This document shows, piece after piece, positions 38 to 34,170 of a stretch of 39,435 bases of DNA. Origin of the DNA: a virus; the UHGV virus genome UHGV-1377012. One strand, written 5' to 3'. The notes beneath the pieces were generated by a model. It was given only the letters and a program-made list of their open reading frames with translations. It did no database searches and was not told the origin of the DNA. The translations under genes were made by a program, and so were the position numbers. Each line of letters starts with the position of its first letter. Position 1 is the stretch's first letter.

Positions 38-54
38 AATCATTCCCACTCAAT
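38..54. repeat. attL core: 17-bp direct repeat AATCATTCCCACTCAAT
   Basis: Identical 17-mer at 39382..39398; the two copies bracket the integrase and all phage modules. Confidence 0.8.
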
Positions 55-2046: not shown

Positions 2047-2061
2047 TTACCCTAGAGGTGA
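2047..2061. promoter_or_regulatory. Palindrome TTACC-CTAGA-GGTGA (one mismatch to TTACC-N5-GGTAA), candidate operator
   Basis: Lies 6 bp past the esterase stop and upstream of the holin-like gene; a minus-strand TATAAT (1991..1996) and CCACATATGG (2006..2015) lie between it and the holin start. Confidence 0.5.
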
Positions 2062-3482: not shown

Positions 3483-5834
3483 TTAGAGATTTCCTGTTGA
3501 CTGCCAAGTGCCAGGAGTGCCGGCGGTAACACATACCCACTCCTTAGGGCTCCCGACAGCAGGAGAGGAATTTATGCATCGCGATCCCCTTGGCCAGGTC
3601 AAAGTGGTTGGAGCGGCGGTATCGTAAAGCACAGGGAGAGATGACCCTTGTTTCACCAAACTTCCAAGCCACGCTGGAACTGTTGGCACATCCCAACGAC
3701 AGCCAGAGTGGAAGAACGCTCCAACACCATCTCCGTACATTCTGATTGCGTCTCCAGTTGTATTTGTGCTGTGACAATCGATAAGGATTAGTGGTTCATT
3801 GTTCCATGAAACGTTTCTGAAGAAACCGTTGAACCTAACTCCTTCAAGTTTCGTAGCGGAGGTTACAGTGAATGCTATATCAGATGTGCCTGCGCCAATG
3901 TGGCTAAAGTTACAATTTTCAAATGTCAGATATCCGGTGGTTCCACCTGTACCTGTCATAACAACGCCACAAGAAGCAGAGCAATTTCTTACGGTAGTAT
4001 TATTGGCAGTGTTACCGAAAGCAGCAGATACGTTAGAAATGCTGACGTTTTCAACTGTGATATTGTCGCCATTGCTACAATGGATCGCCGTTGAATCGTA
4101 AATGTCACCATATTTTGTTATACTTCCTCCATTGAAATGGCAGCGAGTTCCTTGCAAAGAAATCATATAGCTTCCGCTAAATGACTGGCTCCATCTATGG
4201 ATATGGCAATTACTCAACTCAACGTTAAGTAGTGTTCCTGCATCATTGTAAATGTAGATGTCTATTTTTTTGTTATCGCCAGCCAGATGGTCGAAAATGT
4301 GGATGTAACGTGTAGTGGCATCATCTCCAGATTGTGAATACACACGAATGCCGTACTCGCTATTTCCGAATGTTTGATTTCCTTTAAAGGTTGTACCAGT
4401 GCTCTTCCAGGCAATACATCCTCTGCCGCCATCAGATATTTCTGTATCACTCAGATAACCATTATAGTTACCGACAGAATTGATAATTTCATTGAATGTC
4501 CCGTAACGGTCTTCAAGACCCATACCCCAGTTATTTTCAGAAATGCAATCCTGAATTTTACAACGTGTGCAATTGATCATCTGAATACCAGAGCCAGGGA
4601 CCCTTCTTACTGTCATTCCTTTAACAGAACTATAAGAGGTATCAGCAACTAATACCGCAGACACTACACTGTTTGCTCCAGCCCTGACACCTGTGCCAAC
4701 TATAAAACCACCTGAGGTATGTGTATTAGCCCCCCTTATCGCCAATATATAATTTGCCAGCGAAGTACCCTGGATTAACCTTGATGATCCAAAGTCTACA
4801 GACCTACCTGCTTGCAATGTTATAGTGGCATCAAGAAGATAATCACCACCTGTAAACTGCATTCTCTTGCCAACAGCAAACATGGCGTTAATTGCTGCTG
4901 AGCACGGGGTAACTCCATCAGGCACTGCGCCAGCCATTAATGGGTTAATGATATCAGCATTAACACGAATCCATGCCGCTCCACCAGGAGTCTTGAATAC
5001 GGTAACGCCGTTGTCTGTATATGCACTTCCATCAAGCACTGCGCGAAGCTGGCCACCACCGTAACCTGTGCCAGAGGTATATTCTTTCAGGAGCACCCGC
5101 TGACCATCGGAAGCTGGCTCCGTTGCACGGAGAACTGTGACGTTAGGGAATTGCCCTATCAATTTGAAGCCGTCACTTTTTGCCAGCTCCATCAGAACTT
5201 CAGATGCGGAAGCTGATGGCGGGAGAACGACAATTGCATTACCCATGCTATCAAACGCGGGCATTTTGTTTGCCCTGTCAACTGCTGATGGTAGCTGATT
5301 GATTGGCTCTGGTACGCGCAGAGTACGCATCAGGTTGCCACTGGACAGCGTATCAACATAATTCTTGGTAGCTGCATCCTGAGGGTCCCGTGGGTCGCGG
5401 AGATTGCGAATATAGTTGTTCAGCGCATCGTACCAGTTCGCGATGCTTGATGGTTTACGCAGCGCCAGGCGGAACACGCTGAATGCCTGTTGGATCAGCA
5501 TCGTCAGCTTATCGAATGCGTCCTCATGCACCTCTGCGAAGAACTTACCCTGGTTGCGCAGATCGGTATCCTGCGTAACCGGTAGCTCTCTTGATATAGA
5601 AATCTGATAACCGTTAACCAACGCCTTCGACAGAATTACATTGCCGCCGTTATACCCTCCCGCACCAGTGACTATGTAATCAGTATCAAGAGCCAGCACA
5701 GCGATATTTTCGTCAAGGTCAACCACCTGCACTACCAGATCAGATTCATTGAAAACCCTAAAGGTATAAGGGAATGAAGTCGTAACGCCATTGCCTGTGT
5801 ATTCGTTGTGGTCAACTTCGGTTGAGACCGTCAT
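3483..5834 (-). CDS. Tailspike / receptor-binding protein with probable beta-helix depolymerase domain
   Basis: 783 aa; N-terminal roughly 150 aa look like a virion-attachment domain, the remainder is rich in Gly/Asn/Ser/Thr repeats typical of right-handed beta-helix tailspikes; last structural gene before the cargo and lysis genes. Confidence 0.7.
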   Translation of the reverse strand: MTVSTEVDHNEYTGNGVTTSFPYTFRVFNESDLVVQVVDLDENIAVLALDTDYIVTGAGGYNGGNVILSKALVNGYQISISRELPVTQDTDLRNQGKFFAEVHEDAFDKLTMLIQQAFSVFRLALRKPSSIANWYDALNNYIRNLRDPRDPQDAATKNYVDTLSSGNLMRTLRVPEPINQLPSAVDRANKMPAFDSMGNAIVVLPPSASASEVLMELAKSDGFKLIGQFPNVTVLRATEPASDGQRVLLKEYTSGTGYGGGQLRAVLDGSAYTDNGVTVFKTPGGAAWIRVNADIINPLMAGAVPDGVTPCSAAINAMFAVGKRMQFTGGDYLLDATITLQAGRSVDFGSSRLIQGTSLANYILAIRGANTHTSGGFIVGTGVRAGANSVVSAVLVADTSYSSVKGMTVRRVPGSGIQMINCTRCKIQDCISENNWGMGLEDRYGTFNEIINSVGNYNGYLSDTEISDGGRGCIAWKSTGTTFKGNQTFGNSEYGIRVYSQSGDDATTRYIHIFDHLAGDNKKIDIYIYNDAGTLLNVELSNCHIHRWSQSFSGSYMISLQGTRCHFNGGSITKYGDIYDSTAIHCSNGDNITVENVSISNVSAAFGNTANNTTVRNCSASCGVVMTGTGGTTGYLTFENCNFSHIGAGTSDIAFTVTSATKLEGVRFNGFFRNVSWNNEPLILIDCHSTNTTGDAIRMYGDGVGAFFHSGCRWDVPTVPAWLGSLVKQGSSLPVLYDTAAPTTLTWPRGSRCINSSPAVGSPKEWVCVTAGTPGTWQSTGNL

Positions 5835-5938
5835 GTTAAATCTCCAGATAGTCGCAGCACCCGTTGCGCCGCATATCTGGTTATTCTATTACCTGAAAAA
5901 CCACATATGGATAGAAAGACTGTGAATACGAATAGATA

Positions 5939-5953
5939 TTACCTTTCGGGTAA
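5939..5953. promoter_or_regulatory. Perfect palindrome TTACC-TTTCG-GGTAA, candidate operator
   Basis: Immediately upstream of a TTGCAA hexamer (5955..5960) and of the LexA box; a half-site plus CCACATATGG lie at 5889..5910. Confidence 0.55.
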
Positions 5954-5990
5954 TTTGCAAAACGTGCTGGATAGCAAATAAATTATTTGA

Positions 5991-6010
5991 TACTGTATAT
6001 TTATACAGTT
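5991..6010 (+). promoter_or_regulatory. LexA (SOS) box TACTGTATATTTATACAGTT
   Basis: Perfect CTGT-N8-ACAG with AT-rich spacer, 20 bp upstream of the ATG at 6030 and just downstream of a promoter-like TTGCAA-N17-ATAAAT. Confidence 0.75.
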
Positions 6011-6029: not shown

Positions 6030-6287
6030 ATGCAGCAGTATCACTATCCACTGGAAGACGGATTTACCGAAAGGATTTACACGCCGGGAGGCGTCAGGTC
6101 ACTGGTGGAGGGATCGCACTTGATGAAATTACTCCTGGATCTCGATAAGGATGGATTTAATGTCGATGGCCCACTTGCCGAACTGACTGCACTGATTAAC
6201 TACGTCACCAGCTCACAGATGTCTATGCAGGATCTGCAAACACATCTCGACTATTGTGCCGAACAATTACGAAAACAAACCACATAA
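6030..6287 (+). CDS. SOS-box-controlled small acidic protein (85 aa), candidate antirepressor
   Basis: ATG at 6030 with GGAGAA 7 nt upstream (the track start at 6012 is a TTG); plus-strand gene embedded in a minus-strand structural operon; preceded by the LexA box. Confidence 0.6.
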   Translation: MQQYHYPLEDGFTERIYTPGGVRSLVEGSHLMKLLLDLDKDGFNVDGPLAELTALINYVTSSQMSMQDLQTHLDYCAEQLRKQTT

Positions 6288-23217: not shown

Positions 23218-23294
23218 GTGGCATTAGCTCAGCTGGACAGAGCAACCGCCTTCTAAGCGGTTGGTCGCAGGTTCGAATCCTGCATGCCACGCCA
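23218..23294 (+). tRNA. tRNA-Arg (anticodon TCT, reads AGA)
   Basis: 77-nt cloverleaf: acceptor GTGGCAT/ATGCCAC, D-stem GCTC/GAGC, anticodon stem ACCGC/GCGGT with loop CTTCTAA, T-arm GCAGG-TTCGAAT-CCTGC, discriminator G and encoded CCA. Confidence 0.9.
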
Positions 23295-23495: not shown

Positions 23496-23510
23496 TTACC
23501 TTATGGGTAA
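23496..23510. promoter_or_regulatory. Perfect palindrome TTACC-TTATG-GGTAA, candidate operator
   Basis: 33 bp upstream of the ATG at 23543, directly after the terminator. Confidence 0.55.
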
Positions 23511-23542
23511 TATACTGCAAACTAATAACACAAGGCCGTGAC

Positions 23543-24433
23543 ATGCTTGACTTCATCCGTGACATTTACTCCTCTTTCCGCCAAGCATCTCTTGAGCGAG
23601 TGAAAAGCCCGTTCCTTGGGGCATTTGTTTTTTCCTGGCTTTGCTTTAATTGGCAGATGTTAGCAATTCTATTTTTTAGTTCTAAGGATATTGAAAAGCG
23701 CCTTGCTATTATTAATGGCTCTTTCGGCATCGTCAGCTTTTTAATTGCGCCAATATGCACTACAGCATTGATAGTTATCCTTTTACCGCAAATTAATAAA
23801 TTGATTACAATAATACAAGATAAACCTAACTCAGACACAATTGAAATGAGCCTTGCATCTAAAATAAAGATCGCCGAACTGCAGCAACTATTAGCAGAAA
23901 ATGAAGCAAGAAAGAAACTTGCTGATAAAAAAGAAGAACGCTTCATTGAAGAGAATATTATTTCAATAAAAAAAGACCATGAAAAAGCAATAGATAACCT
24001 TAAAGACAAAGAAAGTAAAATCTCAAATCTCACGGACACAATAACTGAACTTCAGAGCAAACTGGTTAAAGCTGAGGCCACTCTCAAAGTTGAACAGGAG
24101 TCAAGATCCCAAGTGCAGAATGAATTGATTATTGAAAAAGAGAACAAGCGGAAATTAGAAGACAACATTCTGCACCTTAATTTAAGTTTAAAAAAAAACC
24201 AATCAGAATTGGCCATTGCAAAAGAAGCCTATGATAATACCTTGATGGCTTATAATGAACTTAACACAACATTAAAAAAAGCAGAAAGCTCAATAATAAA
24301 CTTCAATGCTAACTTTCCTTTTTTAACTGACATAAATAACAGCACCCCAAATACATACTTAAAAATAAATAAAAATGCATGGGAGCATTTAGTTAGTTTA
24401 AATTTAAGTCTAAAGGAAAAAATACAAAAATAA
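23543..24433 (+). CDS. AT-rich membrane-anchored coiled-coil protein (cargo gene, function unknown)
   Basis: 296 aa; two N-terminal hydrophobic helices followed by about 200 aa of Lys/Glu/Leu-rich heptad-like sequence; very AT-rich; opposite strand to the flanking terminase and portal genes. Confidence 0.7.
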   Translation: MLDFIRDIYSSFRQASLERVKSPFLGAFVFSWLCFNWQMLAILFFSSKDIEKRLAIINGSFGIVSFLIAPICTTALIVILLPQINKLITIIQDKPNSDTIEMSLASKIKIAELQQLLAENEARKKLADKKEERFIEENIISIKKDHEKAIDNLKDKESKISNLTDTITELQSKLVKAEATLKVEQESRSQVQNELIIEKENKRKLEDNILHLNLSLKKNQSELAIAKEAYDNTLMAYNELNTTLKKAESSIINFNANFPFLTDINNSTPNTYLKINKNAWEHLVSLNLSLKEKIQK

Positions 24434-25926: not shown

Positions 25927-26519
25927 TGATTACCATCCTGACGTTCTTTCAGTCTCTTCCTGGCTGCTGCTATGCGATCAGCAATTGTCACATTCACATT
26001 AACATCCATGCGTTCTTTGAACGCGTTGACGTCGACGTGCTTACCAATCAGTTCGAGGTTCTTCACCTTGTCAGGCCATTTAATTTTTTTGAGGATTGTC
26101 TCTATCGAATCCTCGTTCATGTTCATGATGGTCGATGACAGATCAAAGCCGCTAAGCGTAGTGCGCCAGATTTTCGGCCACTCGCGGATTGGCTTAAGGC
26201 TCCCATCGTCGTTGAGGATATCAATCACGTCCATCTGGTCGATCTCCACCAGGCGCATGAGAACGTAATCGGCACTGACGCGCATTCGTTTGTTGCGCTC
26301 CTCCATCAACTCGGCAATCCGTTTTTGAATGCGTTCATCGCGCATCATGACACTGGCTTTAACTGCCGCTGTATTTGGGGAGAATCCTGCGTTAATCGCT
26401 GCCTGAGTCTGGTTTTCAGGCGTTTTGATGTATGACTGGCAATAAGCCTCCTGCATTGCTGTTAGTGGCTTAAATTGCGTTGATTTGCGTTTATAGGTTT
26501 TAGGTTCAGCAGGCATCAT
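25923..26519 (-). CDS. Terminase small subunit
   Basis: About 198 aa; start placed at the ATG at 26519 because the track N-terminus (TITTTVTITTVV) is the translation of the GGTAATAG repeat region. Confidence 0.65.
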   Translation of the reverse strand: MMPAEPKTYKRKSTQFKPLTAMQEAYCQSYIKTPENQTQAAINAGFSPNTAAVKASVMMRDERIQKRIAELMEERNKRMRVSADYVLMRLVEIDQMDVIDILNDDGSLKPIREWPKIWRTTLSGFDLSSTIMNMNEDSIETILKKIKWPDKVKNLELIGKHVDVNAFKERMDVNVNVTIADRIAAARKRLKERQDGNQ

Positions 26520-26536
26520 AACCACCGTGGTAATAG

Positions 26537-26551
26537 TTACCGTTGTGGTAA
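26537..26551. promoter_or_regulatory. Perfect palindrome TTACC-GTTGT-GGTAA inside tandem GTGGTAATAGT(T)ACC repeats
   Basis: Four alternating half-sites across 26529..26558, 18 bp upstream of the small terminase start and just downstream of a terminator. Confidence 0.55.
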
Positions 26552-30311: not shown

Positions 30312-30326
30312 TTACCTCTGAGGTAA
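30312..30326. promoter_or_regulatory. Perfect palindrome TTACC-TCTGA-GGTAA, candidate operator
   Basis: 4 bp upstream of the DUF1064 start; followed by an A-tract and CCACATAAG (30334..30342). Confidence 0.55.
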
Positions 30327-30373
30327 TTAAAAACCACATAAGACACGAAATCAATAGATTTTAGAATGTTTTA

Positions 30374-30388
30374 TTACCCAGCAGGTAA
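30374..30388. promoter_or_regulatory. Perfect palindrome TTACC-CAGCA-GGTAA, candidate operator
   Basis: Second copy 62 bp from the first, between the P-like stop and the DUF1064 start; a weak 4-bp hairpin plus A7/T7 tract (30401..30420) lies between it and the P stop. Confidence 0.55.
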
Positions 30389-31211: not shown

Positions 31212-32023
31212 AAGAAATCCTCCCACGCTTCAGGGCTGTTCCAGTGCGGAACGTTGTTATCAGGTAATGTTGATTGCTTCTGTCTGCTAATCTGCAGCCG
31301 CCTTGCCAGCTTCTGCTCCCACTGCGCCTGATGGTATGCCTTACCCTCAGCCATCCAGTAAATTCTGAACTCTGCAAGTTCCTGTGCCGTTGGCAGACTG
31401 TCCAGGTAGATCCCCTGCAATGAGCTTTTCCGAAGAAAGTCATCTGATGGTTGCCATTGTTCATGCATGACAAATTTGCCTAATTGCCCTGGCCCACCAG
31501 GAGGAACAAAGTTATTCATCACGGCGTTGTTTGCGCCGGGGTCATGAGGCACAGAATCCCCGCTTTTTGTCCTGCTCTCCCTCTCTTGGTTAAATGACTG
31601 GTTATATGACTGGTTCTGGATCCCGTTTTTGGGATCATTCAACATCCCGTTTTTGGGATCATTCAACATCCCGTTTTTGGGTATATTCCCGTTTTCGGGA
31701 ACATTACCGTTTTTGGGTTCATTCCCCCATTCCCGGTTGCCTTTAATGTTCCCGTTTTTGGTTATATTAAGAGAGAAAACCCGCACTCTTTTCGTCGCTC
31801 CCTTTCTCTCTCCGGTATCTGAAATAAGCCCCATTTTCATGAGCGATATAAGTCCGGCCTGCACGGTTTTTTTATTCAGACAAGTGTCTTTAACGAGGCG
31901 TTCTATGCTGGGGTAGCAGAGGTTATATTCATCGGCTCTGTCAGCCATCGAGAGCAGTATGAGCTTTAATGATGAGCTGCCTGGATCTGTCTCCCAGGCC
32001 CAATCTGTTGCATGTCTGCTCAT
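31208..32023 (-). CDS. Replication initiator (O-like, N-terminal HTH) containing the origin iterons
   Basis: N-terminal WAWE...LKLILLSMADRADEYNLCYPSIERL resembles the HTH of phage replication initiators; central PKNG repeats are the translation of the DNA iterons; directly upstream of the P-like gene. Confidence 0.7.
   Translation of the reverse strand: MSRHATDWAWETDPGSSSLKLILLSMADRADEYNLCYPSIERLVKDTCLNKKTVQAGLISLMKMGLISDTGERKGATKRVRVFSLNITKNGNIKGNREWGNEPKNGNVPENGNIPKNGMLNDPKNGMLNDPKNGIQNQSYNQSFNQERESRTKSGDSVPHDPGANNAVMNNFVPPGGPGQLGKFVMHEQWQPSDDFLRKSSLQGIYLDSLPTAQELAEFRIYWMAEGKAYHQAQWEQKLARRLQISRQKQSTLPDNNVPHWNSPEAWEDFL
31594..31761. repeat. Iteron array (candidate origin of replication) inside the initiator gene
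   Basis: Six copies of CCCGTTTT(T/C)GGG (31622, 31646, 31670, 31688, 31706, 31751), the first three on an exact 24-bp period, preceded by ATGACTGGTT twice. Confidence 0.65.
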
Positions 32024-32319: not shown

Positions 32320-32334
32320 TTACCTTTGAGGTAC
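32320..32334. promoter_or_regulatory. Palindrome TTACC-TTTGA-GGTAC (one mismatch), candidate operator
   Basis: Lies between the post-cro hairpin and the zinc-ribbon gene; adjacent to CCATATTTGG (32303..32312). Confidence 0.45.
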
Positions 32335-32348
32335 GAATAGATATGAAA

Positions 32349-32368
32349 AGACCGCCGGATGGCGGTCT
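32349..32368 (-). terminator. Hairpin AGACCGCC-GGAT-GGCGGTCT downstream of the Cro-like gene
   Basis: 8-bp GC-rich stem 21 bp after the cro-like stop; only a short U-tract on the minus strand, so intrinsic termination is uncertain. Confidence 0.35.
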
Positions 32369-32389
32369 ACAGAGGGTTGTGGCTGGATA

Positions 32390-32620
32390 TCATGAGTAGA
32401 AGAAGTATGCCAGTTCTGCTTTTGAGCGCAGCCATTGTCTTGTTTTACAGGCTTTAAAAAGCCCATTCATCAATACCTTACCTGGCATTTTGCGCTTACC
32501 TGTTAAGTGAGTCTGGATATAGTGACTCGTCGTTCCGGCTTCCTGTGCGAAGGCTTCACGCTCATCCGGAGTAAGTGCAAGCCAGTGCTTTTTGAAATCG
32601 AAATGTCCGTTATCGCTCAT
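32390..32620 (-). CDS. Cro-like HTH regulator
   Basis: 76 aa; GTTSHYIQTHLTGKRKMPGKV resembles the Cro/CI-type HTH; first gene of the rightward-equivalent early operon, divergent from the repressor-like gene. Confidence 0.65.
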   Translation of the reverse strand: MSDNGHFDFKKHWLALTPDEREAFAQEAGTTSHYIQTHLTGKRKMPGKVLMNGLFKACKTRQWLRSKAELAYFFYS

Positions 32621-32656
32621 AGCTATTGCCTGATATTTATTTCAGATAATAAATAT

Positions 32657-32719
32657 TCACCCATAAGGTAACAAAAATCAAGGATAGTTACCTATGGGGT
32701 GCATTTACCTGTTGGGTAA
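32657..32719. promoter_or_regulatory. Operator cluster (OR-equivalent): three TTACC-N5-GGTAA-type sites
   Basis: TCACC-CATAA-GGTAA (32657..32671), TTACC-TATGG-GGTGC (32688..32702) and perfect TTACC-TGTTG-GGTAA (32705..32719) in the 154-bp divergent intergenic region. Confidence 0.6.
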
Positions 32720-32774
32720 TATTGCTTTAAATTGAATCATCTACTGATTCATATATGAGGCGATTTTCCAGAAA

Positions 32775-33359
32775 ATGAAAAGTATCCAGGACGTCCGCAG
32801 GCAAAATCTCAACGACTTGATCGACCGTGAATTCAATGGTGTTCAGACGCGGATGGCAGAAAAACTTGGAACTCAGGCAAATCTGGTAAACCGCTGGGCT
32901 CTTGGCAAGAAGGTTATCGGCGACCAGGTTGCGCGAAAAATTGAAGCTGCCGCCAATAAACCCCGTAACTGGCTTGATATCGATCGCTCGCTTTCTCAGG
33001 AAGGTTTTCAGCCTGTCGGCCCGAGCGATATAGGTCAGCTGGCGGCTCACAACCTGGAACGCTGGATGAGCGAAAGCCGCGACCTTTCAACACAGGGAAA
33101 ACTTCACCGCGCATCCGGCGTCGCCCAGGTGACAATCAGCCGCCTGTTAAACAATGAGGTCAGCGTTTCCATTTCCACCCTGGAGAATGTTGCATCCGCA
33201 TTCGGGCGTCACGGCTATGAATTACTGATTCACCCGCACGACCCTGCGACCATCAACTATGACCGCTCGCGCTACGCATTGTTACCCGAAACCGAGAAAG
33301 CAAAGATCGAAAGTTACATTGAATTTGTCATCAACCAGAACGAAAAAAACAAACAATAA
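32775..33359 (+). CDS. Repressor-like DNA-binding protein with two HTH-like segments and no recognisable S24 autopeptidase domain
   Basis: 194 aa; TRMAEKLGTQANLVNRWALGKK and GVAQVTISRLLNNEVSVSISTLENVASAFG look like HTH motifs; no Ala-Gly/Ser...Lys LexA-type cleavage module seen in the C-terminal region; divergent from the Cro-like gene and followed by a strong terminator. Confidence 0.55.
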   Translation: MKSIQDVRRQNLNDLIDREFNGVQTRMAEKLGTQANLVNRWALGKKVIGDQVARKIEAAANKPRNWLDIDRSLSQEGFQPVGPSDIGQLAAHNLERWMSESRDLSTQGKLHRASGVAQVTISRLLNNEVSVSISTLENVASAFGRHGYELLIHPHDPATINYDRSRYALLPETEKAKIESYIEFVINQNEKNKQ

Positions 33360-33380
33360 AATCATATTTTTCATTAAGTA

Positions 33381-33406
33381 AGCCGCCTTCTGGCGGCTTT
33401 TTTATT
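33381..33406 (+). terminator. Rho-independent terminator AGCCGCC-TTCT-GGCGGCT followed by T-tract
   Basis: 7-bp GC stem followed by TTTTTTATT, 22 bp after the repressor-like stop. Confidence 0.75.
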
Positions 33407-33416
33407 GCCTGCACAA

Positions 33417-33493
33417 TTACCTTAAGGGTAATTTTTTTAACTCATATCTATTGACACCAAACCAAATACGCATAATCATTACCTCAACGGTAA
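33417..33493 (+). promoter_or_regulatory. OL-equivalent: two perfect palindromes flanking a TTGACA hexamer
   Basis: TTACC-TTAAG-GGTAA (33417..33431), TTGACA (33451..33456), TTACC-TCAAC-GGTAA (33479..33493), directly upstream of the early-left operon. Confidence 0.55.
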
Positions 33494-33667: not shown

Positions 33668-33967
33668 ATGAACGTTAATCAGCAGAAAAATCTTCAAAAA
33701 ATCATGCTGGAATTCGACAAGGACTACCGCCTGTCAGAACAGCTATATGACCGACAAGTCGAACTGATTGAGAGTATCCGGCTTCATCAACTGGCATCAA
33801 CTTTCGACGTTGTAACAGTTAAAGGCGTTCGCCAGGAAGTACTGGAGGCCGCTAAAGACAGCCCTGAGTTCGAAGAACTAATGGATGCCTACCGGCGCGA
33901 GGCAATGGCAATTATCGCCCGCTGGGATCTGGCTGATCAGCTTGATGGGCAGAGGGACGCGGCATGA
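33668..33967 (+). CDS. Hypothetical early protein
   Basis: 99 aa from the ATG at 33668 (GGGAGGG 7 nt upstream); the track start at 33653 is less likely. Confidence 0.5.
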   Translation: MNVNQQKNLQKIMLEFDKDYRLSEQLYDRQVELIESIRLHQLASTFDVVTVKGVRQEVLEAAKDSPEFEELMDAYRREAMAIIARWDLADQLDGQRDAA

Positions 33968-34170
33968 AACCAACACTCCTCTCATTGCTGCGAGGTGGAA
34001 AACACAGCATCCGAGATATGGCAAAGATTCTTGGTATCTCAAGATCGAAGGTTTCTTGGTTCATCGCTGAGCTTGAACGTCGCAAATGGGTAGAGGTAAC
34101 CAGGAGCGCAATATATTTCCACGATGGAACCCGTTCCAACAAGCAGAACGAATACAAGGTTAAGTTATGA
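33964..34170 (+). CDS. Small HTH/winged-helix DNA-binding protein
   Basis: 68 aa; SIRDMAKILGISRSKVSWFIAELERRKWV looks like an HTH; ATGA overlaps on both sides. Confidence 0.5.
   Translation: MKPTLLSLLRGGKHSIRDMAKILGISRSKVSWFIAELERRKWVEVTRSAIYFHDGTRSNKQNEYKVKL

What the first reader, a model, noticed from the sequence alone, without database searches (positions are those of the whole stretch)
32320..33493. Lambda-like immunity switch built from the palindrome, with a repressor that appears non-cleavable
The divergent Cro-like and repressor-like genes are separated by 154 bp holding three sites, two of them adjacent (32688..32702 and 32705..32719). After the repressor-like gene comes a strong terminator, then two perfect sites bracketing a TTGACA hexamer. 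This is the OR / repressor / OL layout of lambda. The 194-aa protein has HTH-like segments but I see no LexA-type autocleavage module, so induction would need an antirepressor or another route.
Basis: partly seen in the sequence, partly recalled or inferred. Interest (0 to 1): 0.6.

Follow-up and report, generated by a model that had tools for sequence, protein, structure and literature searches.

The report
Known phage repressor–antirepressor immunity switch
This is the lysogeny control region of a common phiV10/epsilon15-type E. coli prophage, whose repressor cannot cut itself and is instead switched off by a small DNA-damage-induced antirepressor; the same system has already been solved structurally in the related Salmonella phage SPC32H, so it is real but ordinary.

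Summary
TTACC-N5-GGTAA occurs 14 times at one mismatch or better, against 0.7 expected. Three copies lie in the 154-bp spacer between the divergent genes. Two perfect copies bracket TTGACA-17-AATCAT just past the terminator that follows the 194-aa gene.

The 194-aa protein has no Peptidase_S24 domain, no Ala-Gly or Cys-Gly bond and no cysteine. It aligns over its full length with the Rep repressor of Salmonella phage SPC32H (PDB 5D50_A, E 4e-42). A near-consensus LexA box sits directly upstream of it.

The window is an integrated Uetakevirus prophage, 98-99% identical to phiV10 and ZX5 across this region. An identical repressor was shown by overexpression to shut off ZX5 lytic genes. The region occurs in 541 of 5,426 complete E. 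coli genomes.

Two corrections are needed. By homology the second "HTH" is a dimerisation domain, not a DNA-binding domain. The operators are not confined to OR and OL: 15 sites, all intergenic, sit at syntenic positions in five genomes, some as pairs with conserved spacing.

Verdict: already known, low interest.

The parts
32775..33359 (+). rep: 194-aa non-cleavable prophage repressor (SPC32H Rep family; 100% identical to phiV10 gp40 and ZX5 ORF21)
   Evidence: phmmer against PDB: 5D50_A, E 4e-42, residues 1-190 aligned to 2-197. Pfam finds HTH_3 twice and no S24. tblastn gives 100% identity to phiV10 and ZX5. ZX5 overexpression data.
32390..32620 (-). cro-like gene (76 aa), divergent from rep
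   Evidence: PHROG 35 'transcriptional repressor', E 5.6e-13. AF2 single-sequence model has pLDDT 82 with five helices. Its Foldseek hits to YdaS and the 434-repressor DNA-binding domain are not significant (TM 0.56-0.62, E about 1). No Pfam or PDB sequence hit.
32657..32671 (.). cro-proximal operator (TCACC variant half-site) inside the leftward cro-like promoter
   Evidence: It overlaps TTGTTA-17-TATTAT (32674..32646). It also lies in the spacer of the alternative TTGATT (32681..32676)-18-AATATT, whose -35 block is invariant in five genomes.
32688..32702 (.). middle operator (2 mismatches here; perfect in epsilon15, SPC32H and BUCT711)
32705..32719 (.). rep-proximal operator (perfect), 17 bp centre to centre from the middle operator
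32349..32368 (-). intrinsic terminator after the cro-like gene
   Evidence: Annotated in phiV10.
32320..32334 (.). operator (1 mismatch) just past that terminator, upstream of the next early gene
   Evidence: Equivalent 1-mismatch sites occur in Tyrion and BUCT711.
33380..33399 (+). intrinsic terminator after rep
   Evidence: Annotated in phiV10.
33417..33431 (.). distal operator of the early-left (OL-like) module, 19 nt upstream of the -35
33451..33479 (+). early-left promoter TTGACA-17-AATCAT (PL-like)
   Evidence: 10 of 12 consensus matches. TTGACA is invariant in five genomes.
33479..33493 (.). proximal operator of the OL-like module; starts at the last T of the -10 and lies 62 bp centre to centre from the distal one
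6030..6287 (+). ant: 85-aa antirepressor
   Evidence: phmmer against PDB: 5D50_E 'Anti-repressor protein', E 1e-45. 86% identical to SPC32H Ant.
5991..6010 (.). LexA (SOS) box TACTGTATATTTATACAGTT in front of ant
   Evidence: 1 mismatch to the consensus pattern, 0 expected by chance. CTGT-N8-ACAG is also found upstream of ant in SPC32H, epsilon15, Tyrion and phiV10.
5939..5953 (.). perfect operator in the ant-tailspike spacer, abutting the -35-like TTGCAA (5955..5960)
   Evidence: The equivalent site in epsilon15 is annotated 'protein_bind: repressor'.
30312..30388 (-). second operator-promoter-operator module (operators 30374..30388 and 30312..30326, 62 bp apart; TTGATT-17-TTTAAT between them) in front of the DUF1064 gene
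26519..26551 (.). adjacent operator pair (18 bp centre to centre) ending 3 nt upstream of the terS start codon
22880..22894 (.). operator upstream of the gp3/portal operon
   Evidence: Syntenic sites.
23496..23510 (.). operator in front of the 296-aa ORF of unknown function
2047..2061 (.). operator (1 mismatch) at the head of the lysis cassette
   Evidence: Syntenic sites in epsilon15, SPC32H and Tyrion.
39234..39248 (.). operator (1 mismatch, ATACC) 43 bp upstream of int
   Evidence: The same 1-mismatch site is found upstream of int in all four relatives.

Best explanation
The region is the immunity switch of an integrated phiV10/epsilon15-type (Uetakevirus) prophage and works like the Rep-Ant-LexA switch of Salmonella phage SPC32H.

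Shown here:
- The 194-aa protein is a full-length homologue of SPC32H Rep and lacks any self-cleavage module.
- The 85-aa protein at 6030..6287 is the Ant homologue and has a LexA box in front of it.
- The 15-bp palindrome TTACC-N5-GGTAA marks the cro-like promoter, the early-left promoter and about ten other intergenic control regions, at conserved positions in five genomes.

Shown by others for close relatives:
- An identical repressor shuts off lytic genes in ZX5.
- SPC32H Rep has an N-terminal DNA-binding domain, a middle dimerisation domain and a C-terminal tetramerisation/Ant-binding domain. It binds palindromic DNA as a tetramer.
- Tetrameric Ant, made after LexA cleavage, splits the Rep tetramer and releases it from DNA.

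Inferred for this prophage:
- In the lysogen, Rep tetramers occupy the operators. They block the leftward cro-like/replication promoter, the rightward early-left promoter, a second internal early promoter and several late, int and ant regions.
- DNA damage removes LexA from 5991..6010. Ant is then made, strips Rep from DNA, and lytic transcription starts.
- The cro-like protein then presumably keeps rep off.
For: - Homology: Rep aligns with 5D50_A (E 4e-42) and 5D4Z (E 4e-20). Ant aligns with 5D50_E (E 1e-45).
- No S24 domain. No Ala-Gly or Cys-Gly bond and no cysteine.
- LexA box, conserved upstream of ant in relatives.
- Operators: 14 found against 0.73 expected, and all intergenic.
- The same palindrome is equally enriched in the relatives and sits at syntenic places: 13-18 hits against about 0.5 expected in SPC32H, epsilon15, Tyrion and BUCT711.
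- The epsilon15 GenBank record already labels seven of these sites 'protein_bind: repressor'.
- The helix stretch NLVNRW is invariant across repressors that are only 43-78% identical overall, matching the invariant half-site.
- Operators overlap promoter-like hexamers.
- Literature: ZX5 overexpression of the identical repressor cut endolysin and holin transcripts by more than 99.9%. SPC32H Rep tetramer, Ant and domain layout. LexA-controlled Ant in Salmonella prophages. phiV10-species prophages are induced by a DNA-damaging microcin.
Against: - There are no binding or induction data for this exact prophage.
- The primary SPC32H papers (Kim & Ryu 2013; Kim et al. 2016) and the epsilon15 genome paper could not be read here. 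Whether the TTACC-N5-GGTAA palindrome is the experimentally mapped Rep operator therefore rests on the epsilon15 annotation and on comparative evidence.
- Rep is only 43% identical to SPC32H Rep: 53% in the DNA-binding domain, 34% in the middle domain and 47% in the C-terminal domain.
- The single-sequence structure prediction of Rep failed (pLDDT 45).
- The promoter of rep itself was not located, and rep has no clear Shine-Dalgarno sequence.
- The ZX5 study assigned the antirepressor role to a different, Bro-N-type protein, which this window lacks.
Confidence: 0.88

Rival explanations
1. The 194-aa protein is a classical lambda CI/LexA-type repressor that is inactivated by RecA-stimulated self-cleavage.
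For: Only the lambda-like gene order and operator layout.
Against: There is no Peptidase_S24 match even at E up to 1. The protein has no Ala-Gly or Cys-Gly bond. Its C-terminal two thirds align with the dimerisation and tetramerisation domains of SPC32H Rep.
Confidence: 0.02
2. The palindromes are mainly the sites of another regulator, such as the cro-like protein, another phage HTH protein or a host factor, and Rep recognises something else.
For: No direct Rep-DNA data could be read here. The cro-like protein is probably an HTH protein. In lambda, Cro and CI share operators, so shared use is likely at least in the rep-cro spacer.
Against: The invariant half-site goes with an invariant NLVNRW helix in otherwise diverged Reps. 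The sites guard ant, int, late and lysis regions, which suits a lysogenic repressor. The epsilon15 record labels them repressor sites. Papers describe SPC32H Rep as binding palindromic sites.
Confidence: 0.07
3. Induction does not run through the small Ant but through another route, such as a Bro-N antirepressor as proposed for ZX5 or spontaneous decay of repression. On this view the small gene is a bystander SOS gene.
For: The ZX5 paper reports effects of the Bro-N protein ORF4 and high spontaneous induction. In phiV10-type records the small gene is annotated only as hypothetical.
Against: This window has no Bro-N gene downstream of ant. The small protein is 86% identical to the crystallised SPC32H Ant. 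Its LexA box is conserved.
Confidence: 0.05

Closest known systems
Rep-Ant-LexA switch of Salmonella phage SPC32H (PDB 5D4Z, 5D50; Kim & Ryu 2013; Kim et al. 2016)
   Same: Same genus and same gene order. Rep is homologous over its full length and Ant is 86% identical. There is a LexA box in front of ant, the same TTACC-N5-GGTAA palindrome, and the same operator positions.
   Different: Rep is only 43% identical. The middle operator of the rep-cro spacer is degenerate here. The OL-like module has two operators instead of three and a shorter leader. The variant half-site of the cro-proximal operator is on the opposite side.
Salmonella phage epsilon15 gp38 repressor and its annotated binding sites (GenBank AY150271.2)
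   Same: Orthologous repressor (42% identical). Seven palindromes are annotated as repressor sites at terS, gp3, gp19/ant, OL (three) and after the replication genes. All have counterparts in this window.
   Different: The epsilon15 record does not annotate the three sites in the rep-cro spacer, the lysis-cassette site or the int site, although they are present in its sequence.
Phage lambda CI/Cro with OR and OL
   Same: Divergent repressor and cro-like genes with three operators between them. Then a terminator, then a second operator cluster over the early-left promoter. A terminator also follows the cro-like gene.
   Different: The repressor has no S24 domain and is not self-cleaving. By homology it works as a tetramer with two DNA-binding pairs. 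Operators are 15-bp palindromes, spaced 17 or 62 bp apart. The weakest site, not the strongest, lies on the cro promoter. Operators also occur at late, lysis, int and ant regions.
LexA-controlled antirepressors of Gifsy/Fels-2 prophages and coliphage 186 Tum
   Same: The logic is the same: an uncleavable repressor, with the SOS signal passed on by a small LexA-repressed antirepressor.
   Different: No sequence relation was found here. Ant matched only PHROGs of unknown function, plus a weak match to the C-terminal part of an 'anti-repressor' PHROG. From memory of the 2013 abstract, SPC32H Ant was described as structurally distinct from these.
Repressors with operators spread over the genome (P1 C1; mycobacteriophage L5 gp71 'stoperators')
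   Same: One repressor with about 15 sites distributed across the genome, including late regions.
   Different: This is a resemblance recalled from memory, not tested here. Those sites are asymmetric and the proteins are unrelated.
Rco/Rap of Bacillus plasmid pLS20 (TetDloop tetramerisation domain)
   Same: A paper read here groups SPC32H Rep with Rco: an N-terminal HTH domain plus a C-terminal p53-like tetramerisation domain linked to DNA looping, with an antirepressor partner.
   Different: Rep has an extra middle dimerisation domain. No sequence test against Rco was done here.

Membership tests
SPC32H-type Rep repressors (Uetakevirus) | Full-length sequence homology to the crystallised Rep | tested here: met
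   5D50_A, E 4e-42, query residues 1-190 aligned to chain residues 2-197.
SPC32H-type Rep repressors (Uetakevirus) | N-terminal HTH DNA-binding domain with conserved recognition helix | tested here: met
   Pfam YdaS_toxin/HTH match at residues 21-61. NLVNRW (36-41) is invariant in five orthologues. The domain is 53% identical to SPC32H.
SPC32H-type Rep repressors (Uetakevirus) | Middle dimerisation domain plus C-terminal tetramerisation/Ant-binding domain | tested here: inconclusive
   Residues 89-190 align with the crystallised fragment 5D4Z, E 4e-20. The fold itself was not confirmed because the single-sequence AF2 model had pLDDT 45.
SPC32H-type Rep repressors (Uetakevirus) | Cognate small Ant encoded in the same genome under a LexA box | tested here: met
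   5D50_E, E 1e-45. LexA box at 5991..6010.
SPC32H-type Rep repressors (Uetakevirus) | Rep is not cleaved on SOS induction, binds DNA as a tetramer and is released by Ant | not testable with these tools
   Requires biochemistry. Reported for SPC32H in papers read here.
LexA / lambda CI-type self-cleaving repressors | Peptidase_S24 domain with Ser/Lys dyad | tested here: not met
   No S24 hit at E up to 1. The C-terminal part is homologous to a different domain.
LexA / lambda CI-type self-cleaving repressors | Ala-Gly or Cys-Gly cleavage bond in the linker | tested here: not met
   Neither dipeptide occurs in the protein, and there is no cysteine.
Lambda-like OR / repressor / OL layout | Divergent repressor and cro-like genes with several operators in the spacer | tested here: met
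   Three sites in the 154-bp spacer, conserved in five genomes.
Lambda-like OR / repressor / OL layout | Second operator cluster over an early promoter downstream of the repressor gene | tested here: met
   Operator - 19 nt - TTGACA-17-AATCAT - operator.
Lambda-like OR / repressor / OL layout | Cro-type small HTH protein as the divergent gene product | tested here: inconclusive
   PHROG 35 'transcriptional repressor', E 5.6e-13. Five-helix AF2 model (pLDDT 82) whose Foldseek hits to YdaS and the 434-repressor domain are not significant (E about 1). No Pfam or PDB sequence hit.
Lambda-like OR / repressor / OL layout | Repressor maintenance promoter regulated from the same operators | tested here: inconclusive
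   The scan found no promoter for rep. The only conserved candidate is my reading of TTTACC-18-TAAATT over the rep-proximal operator in the alignment.

The most novel reading that the evidence does not exclude
Rep may be a genome-wide regulator with a fixed site grammar that matches its tetrameric build. If so, each tetramer fills two palindromes.

- Pairs are either adjacent, 17-18 bp centre to centre (rep-proximal pair and terS pair), or 62 bp apart so that they clamp a promoter from both sides (OL-like module and a duplicated module after the replication genes). The 62-bp spacing holds in 9 of 10 cases across five genomes; the tenth is 63 bp.
- The Rep site abutting the LexA-guarded ant promoter would put the antirepressor under a double lock (LexA plus Rep). 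That gives positive feedback once Ant begins to strip Rep.

The site positions are partly annotated for epsilon15. I found no description of the spacing rule or of the double lock in the papers I could read, and one of them states that the repression mechanism of Rep 'has not been extensively characterized'.
Probability: 0.3. Interest if true: 0.4.

Novelty: already known. Interest (0 to 1): 0.15.

Why it matters
It matters little as a discovery. Identical repressor sequences are already annotated in phiV10, ZX5 and hundreds of E. coli prophages, and the mechanism has been worked out genetically and structurally in the sister phage SPC32H.

It is useful as an annotation correction:
- In the phiV10-type E. 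coli records inspected here, the small LexA-controlled Ant is labelled 'hypothetical protein'.
- The one functional study of such a phage (ZX5) tested a different, Bro-N-type protein as the antirepressor.
- About one in ten complete E. coli genomes carries this switch, so its SOS-linked induction route is relevant to prophage induction by antibiotics and bacteriocins.

The conserved operator grammar is a modest, testable addition.

Tried and rejected
- Reading the primary papers: Kropinski 2007 on epsilon15, Kim & Ryu 2013 and Kim et al. 2016 are not held. Their content is taken from citing papers and, where marked, from memory.
- Single-sequence AlphaFold2 of Rep gave pLDDT 45 and is unusable. 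An alignment-based run was not possible because the orthologues came from annotated records, not from the permitted protein search.
- The cro-like protein has no Pfam, NCBIfam or PDB sequence match. Only a PHROG match and non-significant fold hits support the 'Cro-like' label.
- The Rfam scan of the whole window found only a tRNA. There is no antisense-RNA immunity element of the P1/P7 C4 type.
- The promoter scan of the whole window was not enriched over shuffles. It gave usable calls only at the OL-like and cro-like promoters.
- I looked for a promoter of rep and for late promoters next to the terS, portal and tailspike operators by eye and found nothing convincing.
- I looked for a second, cleavable repressor. 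None was found among the 25 window ORFs scanned against Pfam. The structural and lysis ORFs were not scanned.
- Locus files for L003-L005 and L007 did not reach the Python sandbox. Cross-genome work was done with the search and alignment tools instead.
- The large protein-database searches were deliberately not run, because the PDB match already settled the family.
Full report
**What is in the sequence**

A 76-aa ORF on the minus strand (32390..32620) and a 194-aa ORF on the plus strand (32775..33359) diverge from a 154-bp spacer.
- The pattern TTACC-N5-GGTAA has 14 matches at one mismatch or better in the 39.4-kb window. Dinucleotide-preserving shuffles give 0.73 on average and never more than 3.
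- The spacer holds 32657..32671 (one mismatch, TCACC), 32688..32702 (two mismatches) and 32705..32719 (perfect). The last two are 17 bp centre to centre.
- A hairpin with a T-run follows the 194-aa gene (33380..33399). Two perfect sites at 33417..33431 and 33479..33493 bracket TTGACA-17-AATCAT at 33451..33479.
- A further one-mismatch site at 32320..32334 lies just past the terminator of the 76-aa gene (32349..32368).
- All 15 sites I count lie in intergenic DNA, which is 7.3% of the window on a hand-curated gene map.

**Where the window comes from**

- The region is 98-99% identical to E. coli phages phiV10, vB_EcoP_ZX5, BP9 and others of the genus Uetakevirus, and 77% identical to Enterobacter phage Tyrion.
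- The 17-bp attachment core reported for phiV10, epsilon15 and ZX5 is present at both ends of the window, at 38..54 and 39382..39398. The window is therefore an integrated prophage with both junctions.
- The immunity region occurs in 541 of 5,426 complete E. coli genomes.

**The repressor**

- Pfam finds two HTH_3-type stretches and nothing resembling Peptidase_S24, even at E up to 1.
- The protein has no Ala-Gly or Cys-Gly bond and no cysteine.
- Against the PDB it matches the repressor of Salmonella phage SPC32H over its full length (5D50 chain A, E 4e-42). It also matches the crystallised C-terminal fragment (5D4Z, E 4e-20).
- It is 100% identical to phiV10 gp40 and ZX5 ORF21, and 42-45% identical to the repressors of epsilon15, SPC32H and Klebsiella Uetakeviruses.
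- In ZX5, overexpression of this identical protein removed free phage and cut endolysin and holin transcripts by more than 99.9%.
- Papers I could read describe SPC32H Rep as three domains: an N-terminal DNA-binding domain, a middle dimerisation domain and a C-terminal domain. The C-terminal domain both tetramerises the protein and binds the antirepressor.
- The same papers say that Rep binds palindromic sites as a tetramer, and that tetrameric Ant binds two Rep dimers and breaks the tetramer.
- By homology, the segment with the best Pfam HTH score (residues 106-147) is the dimerisation domain, not a second DNA reader.

**The antirepressor**

That ORF matches the SPC32H antirepressor (5D50 chain E, E 1e-45) and is 86% identical to it.
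- Nineteen bases upstream of its start codon ends TACTGTATATTTATACAGTT (5991..6010). This is one mismatch from the LexA-box pattern searched, with none expected by chance.
- CTGT-N8-ACAG is found at the same place in SPC32H, epsilon15, Tyrion and phiV10.
- A review read here states that in Salmonella prophages, citing the SPC32H work, an Ant made after LexA cleavage inactivates the repressor by protein-protein contact.
- A 2026 preprint reports 21- to 47-fold induction of phiV10-species prophages by a DNA-damaging microcin.
- phiV10 and ZX5 carry an additional Bro-N-type 'anti-immunity' gene downstream of the small ant, and the ZX5 study tested that protein. The window lacks it, and the small ant is annotated only as hypothetical in those records.

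**The operators are a genus-wide, genome-wide set**

- The same palindrome is just as enriched in SPC32H, epsilon15, Tyrion and Klebsiella phage BUCT711: 13-18 hits against about 0.5 expected.
- The sites sit at syntenic places in these genomes:
  - an adjacent pair ending a few bases before terS;
  - one site before the gp3/portal operon;
  - one in the ant-tailspike spacer;
  - one at the head of the lysis cassette;
  - one, always with the same mismatch, upstream of int;
  - two or three at the OL-like module;
  - three in the rep-cro spacer;
  - a pair after the replication genes.
- Alignments show the palindromes as conserved islands.
- The epsilon15 GenBank record already labels seven of them 'protein_bind: repressor'.
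- The helix stretch NLVNRW of the DNA-binding domain is invariant in repressors that are otherwise 43-78% identical. This fits the invariant half-site.

**Promoters**

- The OL-like module reads: operator, 19 nt, TTGACA, 17 nt, AATCAT, with the second operator starting at the last T of the -10.
- An equivalent module lies on the minus strand at 30388..30312: operator, 19 nt, TTGATT, 17 nt, TTTAAT, operator. The start codon of the DUF1064 gene follows.
- In ten such pairs across five genomes, the centre-to-centre distance is 62 bp nine times and 63 bp once.
- For the cro-like gene the scan gives TTGTTA-17-TATTAT (32674..32646). The alignment points instead to the invariant block AAAAATCAA, whose complement TTGATT (32681..32676) is a likely -35. 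Either way the cro-proximal operator lies inside the core promoter.
- I could not place the promoter of rep. The best conserved candidate, TTTACC-18-TAAATT over the rep-proximal operator, is only my reading of the alignment.

**The cro-like protein**

- It has no Pfam, NCBIfam or PDB sequence match.
- It belongs to PHROG 35, 'transcriptional repressor' (E 5.6e-13).
- A single-sequence AlphaFold2 model (pLDDT 82) has five helices. Its best PDB fold matches are not significant (TM 0.56-0.62, E about 1). They go to the gonococcal HTH protein NGO0477 (3kxa), the prophage protein YdaS, a lambda-repressor-like protein and the 434-repressor DNA-binding domain.
- 'Cro-like' is reasonable but not proven.

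**How it most likely works**

- In the lysogen, Rep tetramers hold the operators and shut the cro-like/replication promoter, the early-left promoter, the internal early promoter and probably the late, int and ant regions.
- DNA damage cleaves LexA. Ant is then made and strips Rep from DNA, and lytic transcription starts.
- What is shown here: the homologies, the absence of a cleavage module, the LexA box, and the enrichment, intergenic position and conservation of the operators.
- What is taken from work on relatives: the protein mechanics.
- What is inferred: the assignment of each operator to repression.

**Comparison and verdict**

- The layout is lambda-like. The proteins and the induction route are those of SPC32H, and both were described before.
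The second HTH-like segment is by homology a dimerisation domain. The palindrome is a genome-wide operator, not a feature of this locus alone.
- Novelty: already known. Interest: low.
- The most novel reading left open is the operator grammar (adjacent and 62-bp pairs matched to a tetramer with two DNA-binding pairs), together with a LexA-plus-Rep double lock on ant. Neither can be tested with these tools.

Noticed in passing
window 38..54 and 39382..39398: The 17-bp attachment core ATTGAGTGGGAATGATT reported for phiV10, epsilon15 and ZX5 is present at both ends. The window is therefore an integrated prophage with both junctions and about 37 bp of host DNA on each side.
   Followed up: partly
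window 23218..23294 (+): A tRNA-Arg (anticodon TCT) lies between the portal-side operon and the terminase genes. ARAGORN and Rfam both find it, and SPC32H has a tRNA-Arg at the same place.
   Followed up: yes
window 31587..31726: Tandem repeats lie inside the DnaT/HTH_36 replication gene: 24 bp x2.6 (100% match), 18 bp x3.2 and 12 bp x2.4. They may be origin iterons inside the initiator gene, as in lambda O.
   Followed up: no
window 30312..30388 (-): A second operator-promoter-operator module copies the geometry of the OL-like module (19 nt, -35, 17 nt, -10, operators 62 bp apart) and shares ATCTATTGA with it. It sits after the replication genes and their terminator, and is conserved in five genomes.
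   Followed up: partly
window 23496..24433: A 296-aa ORF (23543..24433, +) has no Pfam hit and falls in PHROG 13369 of unknown function. A perfect repressor-type operator directly abuts a TATACT hexamer upstream of it.
   Followed up: no
L006 (phiV10) 3980..3994 and 4261..4845; L007 (ZX5) 3764..4459: phiV10 and ZX5 carry an extra Bro-N 'anti-immunity/anti-repressor' gene downstream of the small ant. In phiV10 it has its own TTACC-N5-GGTAA site and no LexA box. The window lacks this gene. The ZX5 paper tested only the Bro-N protein, and the small Ant homologue is annotated as hypothetical.
   Followed up: partly
window about 5883..5893: An invariant block ATTCTATTACC, containing a lone TTACC half-site, lies in the ant-tailspike spacer of all five genomes, on the tailspike side of the full operator.
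   Followed up: no
window 32657..32671; L003 33388..33402; L002 34437..34451: The cro-proximal operator always carries one TCACC half-site. The variant half faces the cro-like gene in the window and Tyrion, but faces rep in epsilon15, SPC32H and BUCT711.
   Followed up: no
window 33964..34170 (+): A 68-aa winged-helix (MarR/HTH_24-like) ORF lies in the early-left operon, upstream of the exonuclease and RecT genes.
   Followed up: no
window 32760..32777: rep has no convincing Shine-Dalgarno sequence: GAGG lies 14 nt upstream of the ATG. In epsilon15 and SPC32H a TACAAT hexamer sits 4 nt before the ATG, which hints at a leaderless rep mRNA there. This is my reading of the alignment.
   Followed up: no
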